DNA from: a virus
Strand: one strand, 5' to 3'
Virus record (IMG/VR): IMGVR_UViG_3300032214_001034
Span: 10,469-74,468 of that record
DNA length: 64,000 bases
A model generated the notes under the pieces. The model searched no databases and was not told the origin of the DNA. It saw only the letters and a program-made list of their open reading frames with translations. The position numbers and the translations under genes are program-made. The stretch's first letter is position 1. Each line of letters begins with the position of its first letter. This document shows positions 53,823 through 58,132 of the stretch, piece after piece.

Positions 53823-54857
53823 ATGGGTGCAAGAAGTTCTAATAGTAATAGGGGACAAAATAATCGTAGTGATGGACACTTATTAGAGTATTTCCGTAAT
53901 ACTTTTGTTCGTGGTGGTGGTGGTACTAATGTCAATATCAGTTTTCTTGCTACTGGTGGAGACATTGCTAGTGCTTTATCTCCAGGAAACGGGTATAAGT
54001 ATCATACTTTTTCCAGTCTTGGAACTTTTACCGTTAATAGTATTGGAAATAAAGGCACAAAATGCGAAATATTAATTGTTGCCGGAGGAGCATCTGGTGG
54101 ATCTGATAGAGGTGGTGGTGGTGGCGCCGGTGGCGTAGTTCATTACACTAATTTGAGTTTATCGGTTGGGTCTTATACAGTATCTGTTGGTGGTGGAGGA
54201 GCATCAGTTACTGGGTCACCCGGAAATTCTGGCAGTGATAGTTCATTTGGAACTAGTCCATCCCCAACTTATCTAGTATCTAAAGGTGGTGGTGGTGGAG
54301 GATATAATTCTGGTGGTGGTCTAAATGGTAAAATTGGTGGTTCTGGTGGCGGCGCAAACTATGGCGGAAATCCAGGTCCAGCAAATCAATCATCTCAAAA
54401 TCCTTCATTCGTAGGATTACCTGGATTTAATCAATATGGAAACAATGGTGGTACTGGTTCCGGAGGTCCAAAGTTTCAAAATGGAGGTGGAGGTGGTGCC
54501 GGTGGTGCCGGAGGAAATGGAAATACTGGATCAACCAATACCGGTGTTGGTGGAGTGGGAATTCAAATTCCTGCTTTTTCTGGTCCTCTTATTGGCATCC
54601 CTGCCCTGAATCCATTAAGTGCTTTTTTTGCAGGTGGTGGTGCTGCTTCTGTTGGTTCTGAAAATGGTTATGGAACGCCATATTCTCCAGGAGCATCTGG
54701 CGGTTCTGGTGGTGGTGGACCATCTAACCCAGAACCTCCCGGCACTGGAAATCCAGGAACTCAATATTCTGGTGGAGGTGGCGGTGGTGGTCACACCGGC
54801 GCAGATTCTTCGGGTTCTGGTGGTGATGGTCTTGTTGTTATTCGATATTTAGAATAA
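53823..54857 (+). CDS. Gly/Pro-rich adhesin tip (one domain)
   Basis: AL.PGNGYKYHTF and PAF.GPLIG.PAL.PLS shared with 35982 ORF. Confidence 0.65.
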   Translation: MGARSSNSNRGQNNRSDGHLLEYFRNTFVRGGGGTNVNISFLATGGDIASALSPGNGYKYHTFSSLGTFTVNSIGNKGTKCEILIVAGGASGGSDRGGGGGAGGVVHYTNLSLSVGSYTVSVGGGGASVTGSPGNSGSDSSFGTSPSPTYLVSKGGGGGGYNSGGGLNGKIGGSGGGANYGGNPGPANQSSQNPSFVGLPGFNQYGNNGGTGSGGPKFQNGGGGGAGGAGGNGNTGSTNTGVGGVGIQIPAFSGPLIGIPALNPLSAFFAGGGAASVGSENGYGTPYSPGASGGSGGGGPSNPEPPGTGNPGTQYSGGGGGGGHTGADSSGSGGDGLVVIRYLE

Positions 54858-54865
54858 ATAACATT

Positions 54866-54914
54866 ACCTAAACATTTACAAATTTAGGTGGGGGAGTAAA
54901 AATACTCTCTTTTT
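54866..54914 (+). ncRNA. Candidate tiny late RNA 1 (hairpin plus terminator)
   Basis: TAAATA 54855; ACCTAAA...TTTAGGT hairpin; GGGAGTA/TACTCTC-TTTTT terminator. Confidence 0.35.
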
Positions 54915-54977
54915 ATATTTGTGACTTTATGATATAATAAATACTTTCACACTAGTAATCATTCATATAAGAAAACG

Positions 54978-55406
54978 ATGGCACATTTCGCACAACTAGA
55001 TGAAAACAATGTTGTTACTCAAGTCATTGTTGTGAGTAACGAAGATACTTCTGACTCAAATGGTGTAGAAGTAGAAGAAATCGGTGTAGCATTCTGTAAG
55101 AAACTTCTGGGTGCTGACACCAACTGGAAGCAGACTTCATATAATAACAATATGAGAGTTCGTTATGCCGGTATTGGTTATACCTATAATGAAGAACTGG
55201 ATGCTTTTGTACCCCCCATCCCATTTTCCAGTTGGATATTAAATGAAGAAACTGCTGATTGGGAATCCCCACTTAGACCTGCTCCAGAACTTACTGAAGA
55301 AGAAATTGCTTCTAGAAGTTTTTACAGATGGGACGAAGAAGCATATCAAGCAGACAATACTACCGGATGGGTTCTAGAAACTCTTGAAGCACCTGTAGAG
55401 GAGTGA
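54978..55406 (+). CDS. Conserved 'MAHFA' phage protein associated with Gly-rich tips
   Basis: MAHFAQLD.NNVV..VIVV...WKQTSYN...R..YAGIG..Y....DAF.PP.P..SW. Confidence 0.7.
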   Translation: MAHFAQLDENNVVTQVIVVSNEDTSDSNGVEVEEIGVAFCKKLLGADTNWKQTSYNNNMRVRYAGIGYTYNEELDAFVPPIPFSSWILNEETADWESPLRPAPELTEEEIASRSFYRWDEEAYQADNTTGWVLETLEAPVEE

Positions 55407-55417
55407 TAAATACTAAT

Positions 55418-55472
55418 ACCTGATGGACCGCAATCTTTTCAGGTTGGAGGGGCAGTAATGTCCCTCCTTTTT
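55418..55472 (+). ncRNA. Candidate tiny late RNA 2, antisense to the endonuclease leader
   Basis: TAAATA 55407; ACCTGA...TCAGGT hairpin containing GGACCGCA; GGAGGG/CCCTCC-TTTTT terminator. Confidence 0.45.
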
Positions 55473-55507
55473 AATATAAATACATATGCGGTCCTAATGG
55501 TAGAAAA

Positions 55508-56191
55508 ATGTCTAACAAAAAGTATCACTATACCTACTATTCTTATGAAGAATGGGGGAGAGGATATATTGGTTGTAGAAGTTGTGATTGTTTGCCTGAA
55601 GAAGATGTAAAATATCTTGGATCATTCTACGACAAAACCTTTAATCCAACCCAAAAAATAATTCTAGAAACTTTTAAAACGAGAAAGGATGCAATTCGTG
55701 CAGAAATAGAAATGCATAACTTCTATGATATTGCAGCAAATCCACACTTCGCAAATAAAGCAAAACAAACCTCTACAAGATTTACTCAAGCGGGCGTAAG
55801 TCCATCTGAAGAGACGAGAAAGAAATTGAGTAAAGCAGGTAAAGGTAAAAAAAGAAGTGAAGAAACAAGAAAGAAAATAAGTCAGTATCAGAGGAGTAAA
55901 AGTTTAAGTGAAGAAACAAGAGAAAAGGTTCGTCTAGCAAATATCGGTAAAAAGTTATCACCAGAAACAATAAGAAAAAGAGAGGAGACAAGAAGAAAAA
56001 ACTACGAAAAAGGTCCAAAAAGAGTTTTAAGTGAAGAAAGTAAAAGAAAAATAAGTCAATCTGTTAAAAATTTGCCAAGCACTATTTTTATAAATGATGG
56101 ATTTGTATCTAAAAGAATAGAAAGAAATGTATCAATACCCGATGGTTGGGTAAGAGGTAGATTACCAAAAAACCCCGCCACCAGCACCTGA
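55508..56191 (+). mobile_element. Free-standing GIY-YIG homing endonuclease with NUMOD3 repeats
   Basis: YTYYSYEEWGRGYIG; SEETR.K.S repeats; own late promoter TATAAATA at 55475; paralog of 49558 ORF. Confidence 0.8.
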
Positions 56192-56219
56192 AGAGGATCC
56201 TGCTTGATATAGATAAGAA

Positions 56220-56243
56220 GGAGGGTTTATCCCTCCTTTTTTT
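56220..56243 (+). terminator. Rho-independent terminator
   Basis: GGAGGG-TTTAT-CCCTCC-TTTTTTT. Confidence 0.8.
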
Positions 56244-56278
56244 ATGCGAATAAATAACTAGAAATAGGTTTGGGAATA

Positions 56279-57193
56279 ATGCCCACGAATGCATCAAGAC
56301 TATCTGATTTTGGATCGGGAATAGGCACTCAAGGTGCAGTGCTTCAGGTTGATAATGCAAATCAGCGTATTGGTATTGGTACAACAAATCCACAAGCAAT
56401 GCTTCAGGTTGGAACTGGAGTTTCTGTGTATGGGAATAGTGGTATTGTAAGTGCAACTGCGTTTTATGGTGACGGAAGTAACTTAACTGGTATCAATATC
56501 AATTATGTATCAAATGCTGGCATTGCAACTTATGCGACTACTGCTGGTATTGCAACAAATGCACAAGGATTAACAGGAACACCAAATATTGTAATTAATA
56601 ATATTGCTGGTGCTGCAGCTACATTTAGTGGCAATGTGTCAATTGCTGGTACATTAACTTATGAAGATGTAACCAACGTTGACTCTGTTGGTCTAATCAC
56701 GGCAAGAAGTGGTGTAAGAATTAATAGTGGTGGATTAGTTGTAACTGCAGGAGTTTCTACATTAACTACATTAATTCCAGACGAAACTAGGTTTGTAACT
56801 GTTGCAGAAAAACTTACAAGAATTGATGGAAATACGGTAAATCTTACCTACAGTTCCAATGGTTCTAATATTGGATTAGCAACAAATCCAAGTGGTAATA
56901 TTACGCTCAACGTAACTGGAATTCCAACATCAAGTGATTTTGATAATCACGTTATTACCTTTAGTGTCTTTGTTACTAATACTGGAACTGCAAGATCTTG
57001 TACTGCAGTTAATCTAAATGGAGTATCAAAAACTATTAACTGGGCAGGTGGTTCACTTGGAGAGGCAACTTCTGGAGTAACTACATCAAATGGAATAGAC
57101 ATTTATAGTTTTACTGGAATTAATACAGTTGGATCTGCAAGTACAACTGCAAATTATAGAGTTCTTGGAGTAGTTAATGGGGGGTATAGATGA
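56279..57193 (+). CDS. Stalk with fused C-terminal adaptor domain (type C)
   Basis: ATG at 56279; IGIGTTNP, FYGDGSNLTGI, TLTYEDVTNVDSVG, I.W.GG...DIYSF...NYRV. Confidence 0.6.
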   Translation: MPTNASRLSDFGSGIGTQGAVLQVDNANQRIGIGTTNPQAMLQVGTGVSVYGNSGIVSATAFYGDGSNLTGININYVSNAGIATYATTAGIATNAQGLTGTPNIVINNIAGAAATFSGNVSIAGTLTYEDVTNVDSVGLITARSGVRINSGGLVVTAGVSTLTTLIPDETRFVTVAEKLTRIDGNTVNLTYSSNGSNIGLATNPSGNITLNVTGIPTSSDFDNHVITFSVFVTNTGTARSCTAVNLNGVSKTINWAGGSLGEATSGVTTSNGIDIYSFTGINTVGSASTTANYRVLGVVNGGYR

Positions 57194-57196
57194 TTT

Positions 57197-58132
57197 ATGG
57201 CACCTATTTTAAGTAGAGTTGGATTTGATAAAGGATTTGGTAGAAGAAGAGGAGGAGCAAGTAGTGTTGCTGCTGCTTTTGCCACTGGTGGAGATTTAAG
57301 AAGTGCGTATTTGGCACCTGATGGATATTATTATCACACTTTTTCAACTCCAGGAACTTTTACTGTAATTTCAGGATCTAAAAATGTAGAACTTCTTGTT
57401 GTTGGTGGTGGTGGCGGCAGTACTGGATCTGGAGGCGGCGCAGGCGGTGGTGGTATAGTTTATGTTCCAAGTTTTCCTGTTTCTTCTCCAATTTCTGTTA
57501 ATGTTGGTTCTGGTGGTCTGGTTGCTGCCGTACCAGCAAATGATGGAAGTCCTTCTAGTTTTGGTCCTACGGTTGTTGCTACTGGAGGAGGTGGGGGTTA
57601 TACTGATGGAACTGGTTATGGTGCAGGAAGACCTGGTGGAAGTGGAAGCGGTGGTTTAGGTCCAGGTAATCCCGGTGGCAGTAGTGTTTCTCCACCAAGC
57701 ACTGGTGGTGGAACTGCTTATGGAAATCCAGGTGGTGCCGGTTATTCTAGAGCTTCTGGTGGTGGCGGTGGCGGTGCTGGTGCTGCCGGAAGTCCTTCTG
57801 GACCTGGTGGTAATGGTCAACCTTTTCCACAATTTTCTTATTCAAATGTTTTTCCTACACCAATAGCATCATCATTAAATCCATATTCCCCAACAACTAA
57901 TCATTATGCTGGAGGAGGAGGAGGAGGACAATCAGAATCTGGCACTATTTTTCCTGGCGGATTTGGTGGTGGTGGACAATCTGCTGCATTTGATGCCTCT
58001 CCTGGACTTGCTGGGACAGGAGTAAATTATCTAGGAGGAGGCGGCGGCGGTTCTTCAACACGTTCTGGAGTCGGAACTAAAGGTGGTGCTGCCGGTGGAT
58101 CTGGAATAGTAGTAGTTCGTTATCTACCATAA
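57197..58132 (+). CDS. Gly/Pro-rich adhesin tip (one domain)
   Basis: MAP...GFGRRR N-terminus like 47825 ORF; ends GSGIVVVRY. Confidence 0.65.
   Translation: MAPILSRVGFDKGFGRRRGGASSVAAAFATGGDLRSAYLAPDGYYYHTFSTPGTFTVISGSKNVELLVVGGGGGSTGSGGGAGGGGIVYVPSFPVSSPISVNVGSGGLVAAVPANDGSPSSFGPTVVATGGGGGYTDGTGYGAGRPGGSGSGGLGPGNPGGSSVSPPSTGGGTAYGNPGGAGYSRASGGGGGGAGAAGSPSGPGGNGQPFPQFSYSNVFPTPIASSLNPYSPTTNHYAGGGGGGQSESGTIFPGGFGGGGQSAAFDASPGLAGTGVNYLGGGGGGSSTRSGVGTKGGAAGGSGIVVVRYLP

What the first reader, a model, noticed from the sequence alone, without database searches (positions are those of the whole stretch)
55407..55510. Tiny late hairpin RNA complementary to the 5' end of the homing-endonuclease mRNA
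Seen in sequence: late promoter TAAATA (55407) -> ACCTGA-[TGGACCGCAATCTTT]-TCAGGT hairpin -> terminator (55446-55472) -> second late promoter TATAAATA (55475) -> leader beginning TGCGGTCC (55487-55494), the exact reverse complement of the loop sequence GGACCGCA (55425-55432). Established knowledge: T4 endonucleases are restrained by RNA structure at their translation starts. Inference: a roughly 55-nt RNA pairs in trans (or in read-through RNA, in cis) with the endonuclease leader to limit a toxic nuclease, like a type-I antitoxin.
Basis: partly seen in the sequence, partly recalled or inferred. Interest (0 to 1): 0.7.

Follow-up and report, generated by a model that had tools for sequence, protein, structure and literature searches.

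The report
Portable RNA leash on homing endonucleases
The 100 bases in front of this cyanophage's selfish DNA-cutting gene are one copy of a widespread, movable control module whose hairpin loop base-pairs with the start of the nuclease's own mRNA; this extends a known phage T4 trick and may also produce a small antisense RNA that nobody has yet observed.

Summary
It is far more than chance. The same layout (late-promoter box P1, hairpin H1, terminator T1, TATAAATA box P2, then a leader complementary to the H1 loop) precedes homing-endonuclease genes in well over 100 IMG/VR cyanomyovirus contigs and three times in isolate S-SRM01. The loop and the leader change together: about 30 different "codes" occur, and a cassette's own complement is 11 nt (median) against 4 nt for mismatched pairs. 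G·U wobbles place the pairing in plus-strand RNA. The module sits in front of unrelated cargo: GIY-YIG and HNH nucleases and one TnpB.

The pairing most likely blocks translation of the nuclease. It should act in cis on read-through transcripts, like the T4 I-TevI/segB masks that a nested late promoter bypasses. P1, H1 and T1 are all conserved and together outline a ~55-nt RNA that starts at the base of the hairpin, so a trans-acting antisense RNA is plausible. No such RNA has been seen, and cis versus trans stays open.

It is not a type I toxin-antitoxin system. I found no Rfam family and no paper that describes it. This scan has already reported the same module on other DNA, in at least 37 genomes. 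A second, orphan copy without a nuclease gene lies at 54853-54915.

The parts
55389..56219 (+). Inserted homing-endonuclease cassette (831 nt) relative to the empty site in Synechococcus phage Bellamy
   Evidence: Local alignment: left homology ends at window 55388 (Bellamy locus L003 3442) and right homology resumes at window 56220 (L003 3452). Bellamy has only about 10 nt between these points.
55405..55412 (+). P1, late-promoter-type box GATAAATA. The stop codon TGA (55404-55406) of the upstream 142-aa gene overlaps it. Predicted +1 is 55418.
   Evidence: Sequence. This is the same form as the phage's ordinary late promoters: ATAAATA occurs 18 times on the plus strand and 2 on the minus, and 14 of the 18 lie within 60 nt of an ORF start. 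The TAAATA core is present in 123 of 134 nuclease-anchored cassettes that have the complement.
55418..55444 (+). Hairpin H1: stem 55418-55423 / 55439-55444 and a 15-nt loop. The anti-leader GGACCGCA is at 55425-55432.
   Evidence: the candidate sRNA folds alone at -25.2 kcal/mol. H1 begins at the predicted +1 or +2 of P1 in 121 of 122 cassettes. There are 45 stem sequence types with compensatory and G·U changes.
55446..55472 (+). T1, an intrinsic-terminator-like hairpin (stem 55446-55453 / 55460-55467) followed by TTTTT
   Evidence: In 121 of 123 cassettes there are exactly two hairpins between the P1 +1 and P2. The tails are T-rich. There are 89 distinct T1 sequences.
55475..55482 (+). P2, consensus T4-type late promoter TATAAATA, lying between the two pairing arms. 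Predicted +1 is 55488.
   Evidence: The box reads TATAAATA in 121 of 134 cassettes. It is one of only two plus-strand TATAAATA copies in the window.
55487..55502 (+). Leader target: TGCGGTCC (55487-55494) pairs with the H1 loop, and GGTA (55499-55502) can pair with TACC (55417-55420)
   Evidence: The minimum-energy fold of the read-through RNA contains both helices. The complement starts 4-5 nt after the P2 box in 106 of 134 cassettes. The intermolecular duplex is -19.2 kcal/mol.
55508..56191 (+). Cargo: 227-aa free-standing homing-endonuclease-like gene with a GIY-YIG-like N-terminal domain and NUMOD3 repeats
   Evidence: Pfam NUMOD3, E = 7e-8. PHROG 314 'homing endonuclease', E = 5e-23. Model residues 5-87 match the I-TevI catalytic domain 1LN0 at Z 5.5, followed by UvrC GIY-YIG domains. 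Relatives are annotated as Seg-like GIY-YIG.
56220..56256 (+). Native terminator T2 (GGAGGG / CCCTCC plus T7) and native late promoter AATAAATA (56249-56256) of the downstream tail-fibre-like gene (ATG 56279)
   Evidence: Aligns with the single terminator-promoter pair at the Bellamy empty site. Sequence.
54853..54915 (+). Orphan copy of the module's upstream half: AATAAATA (containing the stop TAA of the 344-aa Gly-rich gene), H1 ACCTAAA / TTTAGGT, then a terminator. No P2, matching leader or nuclease gene follows.
   Evidence: It resembles the complete cassettes L188 and L230. No target for its loop lies near any promoter in the window.

Best explanation
This is one copy of a portable control module that homing-endonuclease genes carry with them in T4-like cyanophages. 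A segment in the loop and 5' arm of hairpin H1 (the anti-leader) pairs with the first 8-14 nt of the nuclease mRNA made from the nested late promoter P2. The helix ends a few nucleotides before the start codon and hinders ribosome binding.

Shown here: the pairing is under selection, it is an RNA pairing on the plus strand, and the module moves between unrelated nuclease genes.

Inferred, mode 1 (cis): any transcript that enters from upstream and reads through T1 carries both arms and is translationally silent. Only the short P2 transcript is translatable. This is how T4 I-TevI, I-TevII, I-TevIII and segB, and Aeh1 mobE, are controlled.

Inferred, mode 2 (trans): the anti-leader has its own conserved late-promoter box exactly 5 nt before the hairpin and its own terminator. 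It is therefore probably also released as a ~55-nt RNA that titrates P2 mRNA and keeps the nuclease dose low.

I put about 0.85 on 'the pairing represses nuclease translation' and about 0.5 on both modes operating.
For: Covariation of loop and leader:
- In 106 pattern-derived cassettes, a cassette's own exact complement is 11 nt (median) against 4 nt in 20,000 mismatched pairs. There are 31 distinct leader 7-mers.
- In a sample anchored only on nuclease proteins of three families (149 distinct upstream regions), 137 have P2, 134 of those have a complement of 7 nt or more, and 123 also have P1.
- At one fixed register, with no per-sequence fitting, 70% of cells are Watson-Crick pairs, against 19-34% at other registers and 43% with shuffled leaders.

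RNA level and strand:
- The first pair beyond the exact core is G·U in 64 cassettes and A·C in 6.

Specificity:
- Cognate duplexes have a median of -22.1 kcal/mol and non-cognate ones -10.8.

Cis mask:
- Opening positions -14 to +4 costs 11.7 kcal/mol (median) in read-through RNA and 3.2 in the P2 transcript. For the window the figures are 7.5 and 4.2.
- In 56 of 94 cassettes the upstream ORF's stop codon lies inside the P1 box, and only 1 of 94 has another terminator before it. Upstream transcription therefore runs straight into the module.
- The T4 precedent is documented in PMC2988022.

Small-RNA anatomy:
- The P1 form equals the phage's normal late promoters.
- H1 starts at the predicted +1 or +2 in 121 of 122 cassettes. 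In 121 of 123 there are exactly two hairpins, with a median length of 57 nt.
- H1 itself shows compensatory changes. A pure cis mask does not need this hairpin.

Portability:
- The same codes precede different cargo families: GIY-YIG, HNH and one TnpB.
- The cassette is an 831-nt insertion relative to Bellamy.
Against: - No transcript ends are known, so P1 activity, T1 efficiency and the ~55-nt RNA are all inferred from sequence.
- The window's copy pairs less extensively than most (8 + 4 bp against about 14 bp). Its predicted cis mask is modest, at 3.3 kcal/mol.
- The helix stops 5-10 nt before the ATG rather than covering the start codon, and cyanophage ribosome sites are poorly defined.
- A variant of the module on the same nuclease families (for example L183, L203, L269) has no P1 and a helix that reaches the AUG. 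The core function therefore does not need a dedicated promoter.
- The P1 box also supplies the upstream gene's stop codon in 60% of cassettes, which could contribute to its conservation.
Confidence: 0.5

Rival explanations
1. Cis-only T4-type mask. The anti-leader matters only on read-through RNA from the upstream late gene. T1 is simply that gene's terminator, brought along by the cassette. P1 is kept because it supplies the upstream stop codon or is a recombination or insertion junction, and any short RNA it makes has no function.
For: - The T4, RB3 and Aeh1 precedents have the same logic.
- The upstream ORF stops inside the P1 box in 56 of 94 cassettes, with no other terminator.
- There is a large predicted accessibility difference between read-through and P2 transcripts.
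- The variant without P1 keeps the loop-leader pairing.
- Two RNA-library contigs bridge T1 and P2. This is weak, because DNA carry-over is not excluded.
Against: - TAAATA is kept in 123 of about 126 cassettes of this type. That includes the 38 of 94 pattern-set cassettes where the upstream stop lies elsewhere or no same-strand ORF ends there. The spacing to H1 is fixed at 5 nt while the spacer sequence varies. A stop codon needs neither this motif nor this spacing.
- The H1 3' arm covaries with the 5' arm, although a cis mask does not need the anti-leader to be pre-folded in its own hairpin.
- An efficient terminator between the two arms would leave little RNA to mask.
Confidence: 0.3
2. Trans-only antisense control. 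T1 is efficient, read-through is negligible, and the ~55-nt late RNA is the sole regulator. It would work like IS10 RNA-OUT acting on the 5' end of RNA-IN, or like a type I antitoxin.
For: - The promoter, 5' hairpin and terminator anatomy is complete.
- The anti-leader is presented in a loop and is GC-rich, and the target is the extreme 5' end of the P2 mRNA.
- Cognate and non-cognate duplexes are well separated in energy.
- Cassettes within one genome carry different codes: three in S-SRM01 and two each in L047, L055 and L123.
Against: - No RNA has been observed.
- Many T1 tails are interrupted U-tracts (longest T run of 3 or fewer in 90 of 122), so some read-through is likely.
- The upstream gene transcribes directly into the module, so cis pairing cannot be avoided whenever read-through occurs.
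- Type I toxin-antitoxin defining features are not met (see membership test).
Confidence: 0.1
3. The pairing serves another RNA-level purpose. It could create a processing site that separates the upstream mRNA from the nuclease mRNA, or it could protect the 5' end of the nuclease mRNA and so raise expression rather than lower it.
For: - The helix begins at the predicted first nucleotide of the P2 mRNA.
- The P2 leader alone is nearly unstructured, at -3.0 kcal/mol.
Against: - The helix abuts or overlaps the purine-rich stretch just before the ATG.
- In the variant module it covers the AUG itself. That fits repression, as does the T4 precedent.
Confidence: 0.07
4. Chance inverted repeat, or a DNA-level signal such as a recombination site or nuclease recognition site.
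For: An isolated 8-mer match is not rare across a 64-kb genome scan.
Against: - More than 100 cassettes preserve the complementarity while the sequence changes.
- G·U outnumbers A·C by 64 to 6, which has no meaning in duplex DNA.
- The module precedes nucleases of unrelated families with different specificities.
Confidence: 0.02

Closest known systems
T-even translational masks with a nested late promoter (T4 I-TevI, I-TevII, I-TevIII, segB; Aeh1 mobE; also T4 e, soc and 49 from my own knowledge), reviewed in PMC2988022
   Same: A homing-endonuclease leader is paired with an upstream segment on long transcripts. A late promoter sits between the two arms, so the short late transcript escapes the mask. 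The purpose is to restrain a selfish nuclease.
   Different: - Here the upstream arm is pre-folded in its own covarying hairpin, has its own late-promoter box 5 nt upstream and is followed by an intrinsic-terminator-like hairpin. The T4 cases have none of these.
- The helix covers the 5' end of the late mRNA and stops 5-10 nt before the ATG instead of enclosing the Shine-Dalgarno sequence and AUG.
- The whole unit is a conserved, portable cassette shared by unrelated nuclease families.
- The variant module (L183 type) is much closer to the T4 form.
IS10/Tn10 RNA-OUT and RNA-IN antisense control (my own knowledge, not tested here)
   Same: A hairpin loop of a small stable RNA pairs first with the extreme 5' end of the mRNA of a selfish element's enzyme and blocks its translation. 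This would give copy-number-dependent self-restraint.
   Different: RNA-OUT is transcribed from the opposite strand and overlaps its target by about 35 nt. Here the candidate RNA lies on the same strand, upstream and non-overlapping, with 8-14 nt of complementarity. Its existence is not shown.
Type I toxin-antitoxin systems (hok/sok and similar)
   Same: An adjacent small RNA complementary to the leader of a potentially harmful gene.
   Different: The cargo is a 185-400-aa nuclease, not a small membrane peptide. There is no evidence of differential RNA stability or addiction. The module occurs in a lytic phage, and both promoters are late.
PeSL mobile promoter-terminator cassettes of T4-like coliphages and vibriophages (PMC2839356, PMC4122927)
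   Same: Small conserved composite terminator/promoter units that sit at the borders of inserted genes in T4-like genomes and appear to be shuffled as modules.
   Different: PeSLs combine a stem-loop with an early sigma70-type promoter. They have no reported anti-leader complementarity, are not specific to nuclease genes and were not described in cyanophages.
CfrI antisense RNA of cyanophage S-PM2, next to the homing endonuclease F-CphI
   Same: A non-coding RNA associated with a homing-endonuclease locus in a T4-like cyanophage. The window's nuclease is a homologue of S-PM2p178, the gene next to F-CphI.
   Different: CfrI is a ~200-nt true antisense transcript on the opposite strand, spanning the psbA/F-CphI junction (annotated). 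S-PM2p178 has no such module, because its start overlaps the F-CphI stop.

Membership tests
T4-type translational mask with nested late promoter | The upstream segment is complementary to the endonuclease leader, so long transcripts fold over the translation start region | tested here: met
   The window has 8 + 4 bp in the minimum-energy fold of the read-through RNA. Across the family, the median exact complement is 11 nt and extends to about 14 bp through G·U pairs. The opening energy at -14 to +4 is 11.7 against 3.2 kcal/mol.
T4-type translational mask with nested late promoter | A late promoter lies between the arms, so the late transcript lacks the 5' arm | tested here: met
   TATAAATA at 55475-55482 lies between 55425-55432 and 55487-55494. 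The same holds in 134 of 137 nuclease-anchored upstream regions that have a P2 box. Promoter activity itself was not measured.
T4-type translational mask with nested late promoter | The helix sequesters the Shine-Dalgarno sequence and/or the start codon | tested here: inconclusive
   In this type of module the exact complement ends 9-13 nt before the ATG, or about 6-10 nt with the G·U extension. In the window, GGTA at -9 to -6 is paired. The variant module covers the AUG. No ribosome site has been defined experimentally.
Trans-acting antisense small RNA | An independent transcription unit: its own promoter and its own terminator | tested here: inconclusive
   The sequence signals are present and conserved: P1 in 123 of 134, H1 at +1 or +2 in 121 of 122, and a terminator hairpin in 121 of 123. 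No transcript data exist. Metatranscriptome contigs cannot show RNA ends.
Trans-acting antisense small RNA | Acts on a target RNA molecule other than its own | not testable with these tools
   This needs a reporter or Northern experiment. Orphan copies (window 54853-54915, L070, L149) have no matching leader in the DNA available.
Type I toxin-antitoxin | The toxin is a small, usually hydrophobic peptide whose mRNA is neutralised by an unstable antisense RNA | tested here: not met
   The cargo is a 227-aa GIY-YIG-like/NUMOD3 nuclease. Other cassettes carry HNH nucleases or a TnpB.
GIY-YIG homing endonuclease (I-TevI/Seg type) | N-terminal GIY-YIG catalytic fold with conserved Tyr, Tyr-Ile-Gly, Arg, Glu and Asn | tested here: inconclusive
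   Pfam GIY-YIG does not hit this protein. Invariant residues in 14 homologues include Y8, Y10, G19, Y20, G22, R24, E66 and N78. Model residues 5-87 give the best structural match to the I-TevI catalytic domain, at Z 5.5, rmsd 3.8 and 78 aligned residues, followed by UvrC GIY-YIG domains at Z 4.3-4.8. These scores are below the level that excludes a common arrangement.
GIY-YIG homing endonuclease (I-TevI/Seg type) | NUMOD-type DNA-binding repeats after the catalytic domain, and a free-standing gene inserted between conserved phage genes | tested here: met
   NUMOD3, E = 7e-8. PHROG 314 'homing endonuclease', E = 5e-23. The cassette is an 831-nt insertion relative to the Bellamy empty site.
Rfam families (any) | A covariance-model match | tested here: not met
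   Nothing overlaps the module at E up to 1 in window 54000-57500, or at E up to 0.1 in 13 loci with cassettes.

The most novel reading that the evidence does not exclude
The upstream half of the module is a genuine small-RNA gene. Each cassette would then make a ~55-nt late antisense RNA with its own 8-14-nt 'address', about 30 of which are seen. This would be a family of mutually orthogonal, portable riboregulators that selfish nucleases (GIY-YIG, HNH, even TnpB) carry to limit their own dose in T4-like cyanophages. It would be the first trans-acting antisense control described for homing endonucleases. An extension with lower odds: orphan copies left after nuclease loss, such as window 54853-54915, could silence an incoming nuclease with the same address during co-infection.
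Probability: 0.45. Interest if true: 0.8.

Novelty: new variant of a known kind. Interest (0 to 1): 0.62.

Why it matters
Homing endonucleases are selfish genes that must be expressed enough to spread but not enough to harm the phage. T4 solves this case by case with local hairpins. Here the solution is packaged as a standard, exchangeable ~105-nt module that travels with many unrelated nucleases and is very common in uncultured cyanomyoviruses.

If the short RNA exists, it would be a natural set of orthogonal antisense regulators. It would also be a rare example of trans-RNA control in a T4-like phage.

Practically, the module marks nuclease insertions, and their footprints, in cyanophage metagenomes. 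It also gives a clean system for compensatory-mutation tests.

Tried and rejected
- **RNA evidence.** One search for runs and one laying of four metatranscriptome runs returned only assembled contigs at depth 2-12. One 151-nt piece (55394-55544) and one 231-nt piece (55444-55674) bridge T1 and P2, and one piece ends at 55468 in the T1 U-tract. Contigs cannot show RNA ends, and DNA carry-over is not excluded, so I draw no conclusion from them.
- **Covariation on a MAFFT alignment.** On the alignment of 118 cassettes (A2) only 55% of cells paired, and a +1 slide scored as well. Loop-length differences put subfamilies out of register. I replaced this with alignment-free and fixed-register tests.
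- **Distant targets of orphan hairpins.** I searched the L070 and L149 records and the window and found none. The records are only 6-24% complete, so this is uninformative.
- **BLAST of the module against isolate phages**. Only S-SRM01 matched. Isolates carrying a homologous nuclease (S-PM2, ACG-2014f, Sf-CH5, S-H68, S-B43) lack the module, so no cultured system with transcript maps was found.
- **Sequence search of the nuclease against PDB**: nothing.
- **Foldseek**: only weak hits (E > 0.2), though most of the top ones are GIY-YIG domains.
- **P1 as an off-consensus promoter.** I rejected this, because NATAAATA and NCTAAATA are the normal late-promoter forms in this phage.
- **Literature searches** found no description of this module.

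Full report
**What is in the window**

- The 142-aa gene ending at 55406 stops with a TGA that overlaps GATAAATA (55405-55412, here P1).
- Five nucleotides later comes hairpin H1. Its stem is ACCTGA (55418-55423) / TCAGGT (55439-55444), and its 15-nt loop contains GGACCGCA (55425-55432).
- Next is a GC-rich hairpin with a T5 tail (T1, 55446-55472), then TATAAATA (P2, 55475-55482).
- Four nucleotides after P2 lies TGCGGTCC (55487-55494), the exact complement of the loop 8-mer.
- The ATG of a 227-aa ORF is at 55508.

Folded as one RNA, positions 55400-55530 give -41.2 kcal/mol (z = -4.7). The minimum-energy structure contains the long-range loop-leader helix plus a second short helix, UACC (55417-55420) with GGUA (55499-55502), enclosing T1.

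**Context**

The window is a T4-like cyanomyovirus fragment.

The ORF carries NUMOD3 and matches PHROG 314 'homing endonuclease'. It has relatives annotated as Seg-like GIY-YIG endonucleases, and it is homologous to S-PM2p178. A model built from 14 homologues places residues 5-87 closest to the I-TevI catalytic domain (Z 5.5), followed by UvrC GIY-YIG domains. That match is weak but coherent.

Compared with Synechococcus phage Bellamy, which has the flanking genes but no nuclease, window 55389-56219 is an 831-nt insertion. Bellamy's single terminator-promoter pair corresponds to the window's 56220-56256, downstream of the nuclease gene. P1, H1, T1 and P2 therefore arrived with the nuclease gene.

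S-SRM01 has the same scaffold in front of its homologue, but with loop CGGGTGAC and leader GTCACCCG. Of 28 IMG/VR loci encoding homologues, 17 loci (12 distinct upstream sequences) carry the module, with six further loop/leader pairs.

This gave 106 distinct cassettes. In 97 of them the hairpin holds an exact complement of 7-16 nt (median 11) to the leader. In 89 of those 97 the complement begins 4-5 nt after the P2 box. Twenty thousand mismatched hairpin/leader pairs give a median of 4 nt.

To avoid selecting on the pattern, I also collected loci through the proteins of two other nuclease families. Together with the first family this gave 149 distinct upstream regions.
- 137 have a P2 box.
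- 134 have a complement of 7 nt or more.
- 123 also have a TAAATA box at the P1 position.

At a single fixed register, with no per-sequence fitting, 70% of cells are Watson-Crick pairs. Other registers give 19-34%, and shuffled leaders give 43%. The first pair beyond the exact core is G·U in 64 cassettes and A·C in 6, so the helix is selected in plus-strand RNA, not in DNA. Cognate duplexes are about 11 kcal/mol more stable than non-cognate ones.

**What the module is attached to**

The cargo differs between cassettes: this YSYEE..GYIG family, Pfam GIY-YIG proteins, HNH and I-HmuI-like proteins, and one TnpB. The same loop/leader code occurs in front of different cargo families. Genomes with several cassettes use different codes: three in S-SRM01 and two each in L047, L055 and L123. 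The module is therefore a portable unit, not a feature of one gene.

**How it probably works**

Two readings fit, and they are not exclusive.

(a) *Cis.* This matches the documented control of T4 I-TevI, I-TevII, I-TevIII and segB, and of Aeh1 mobE. In those cases long transcripts fold over the ribosome site, and a late promoter inside the structure yields a short translatable transcript (PMC2988022).
- In 56 of 94 cassettes the upstream ORF's stop codon lies inside the P1 box, and only one cassette has another terminator before it. Upstream transcription therefore runs straight into the module.
- The predicted cost of opening -14 to +4 is 11.7 kcal/mol in read-through RNA against 3.2 in the P2 transcript. 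For the window the figures are 7.5 and 4.2.
- A variant module on the same nuclease families (L183, L203, L269 and others) has no P1. A single large hairpin carries the anti-leader in its apical loop, and the helix reaches the AUG. This is the T4 design in almost pure form.

(b) *Trans.* In the window's type of module the upstream half looks like a gene for a ~55-nt RNA.
- P1 has the form of this phage's ordinary late promoters. NATAAATA or NCTAAATA occurs 24 times on the plus strand and 4 on the minus, mostly 15-36 nt before ORF starts.
- P1 is retained in about 98% of such cassettes, while the 5-nt spacer behind it varies.
- H1 begins at the predicted +1 or +2 in 121 of 122 cases. Exactly two hairpins fill the space up to P2 in 121 of 123, with a median length of 57 nt.
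- The H1 stem itself shows compensatory and G·U changes, with 45 stem types.

A pure cis mask needs neither a promoter directly in front of the 5' arm, nor a hairpin that presents the anti-leader in a loop, nor a terminator between the arms. This is an argument from design, not an observation.

**What could not be shown**

No transcript ends are available. The only RNA data were low-depth metatranscriptome contigs. Among isolates only S-SRM01 carries the module. I found no paper on it that mentions the module, and I read none for transcript data.

**Comparison with what is known**

No Rfam family matches. Searches of the open literature found the T4 masks, the PeSL promoter-terminator cassettes of coliphages and vibriophages and the S-PM2 CfrI antisense RNA, but no description of this module. 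It is not a type I toxin-antitoxin system.

This scan has reported the same module before on other DNA: 64 notes in at least 37 genomes. Those follow-ups reached the same partly-supported verdict. I re-derived the result independently here.

- The nuclease-anchored, pattern-free frequencies.
- The fixed-register test.
- The finding that P1 matches the phage's native promoter form.
- The frequent overlap of the upstream stop codon with P1.
- The contrast with the P1-less variant.
- The orphan copy at 54853-54915.

**Verdict**

The feature is real and strongly conserved, and it is very probably a translational restraint on homing endonucleases. It is a new, elaborated and portable variant of a known T4 mechanism. 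Whether it also makes a trans-acting small RNA is open, at roughly even odds.

Noticed in passing
window 54853-54915 (+): An orphan copy of the module's upstream half: AATAAATA (containing the stop TAA of the 344-aa Gly-rich gene), hairpin ACCTAAA / TTTAGGT, then a terminator. No P2, matching leader or nuclease gene follows. It resembles the complete cassettes L188 and L230. It is probably the footprint of a lost nuclease cassette. Similar orphans occur in L070 (upstream of the homologue of the window's 142-aa gene), L149 and L073.
   Followed up: partly
L183:296-412, also L198, L203, L207, L269, L271, L272, L275, L293: A second form of the module on the same nuclease families. It has no upstream promoter box. 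A single large hairpin (GGGCAGCAAC ... GTTGC GTAA GTCCCAC) carries the anti-leader in its apical loop, followed by TATAAATA. The leader complement reaches the AUG (13 bp in L183).
   Followed up: partly
L087:3958-5151 (+): One cassette drives a 398-aa TnpB (Pfam OrfB_IS605, Cas12f1-like TNB, HTH_OrfB_IS605) instead of a homing endonuclease. Its loop/leader pair is intact (TTGGTTCGCA).
   Followed up: partly
pattern-derived cassettes, for example window 55404-55412: In 56 of 94 cassettes the upstream ORF's stop codon lies inside the P1 box (TGA of TGATAAATA, or one of the TAAs of TAAATAA). The cassette therefore supplies the stop of the gene it lands behind. In the window, the last five codons of the 142-aa gene differ from Bellamy's.
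   Followed up: partly
window, whole (for example 24558, 36976, 38980, 40975, 44272, 46988): Late-promoter-type boxes in this phage read NATAAATA or NCTAAATA with a strong strand bias (24 plus, 4 minus). They sit 15-36 nt before the starts of the fibre and structural genes. Several share the context tccttCATAAATA.
   Followed up: no
L158:506-603 (S-SRM01, about 900 nt upstream of its third cassette): A strong match to the Rfam wcaG RNA motif (RF01761, 101 bits, E = 1.5e-18).
   Followed up: no
window 55318-55674: Metatranscriptome contigs from one study cover the module. One piece ends at 55468 in the T1 U-tract and two pieces bridge T1 and P2. Depth is low, and contigs cannot show RNA ends.
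   Followed up: partly
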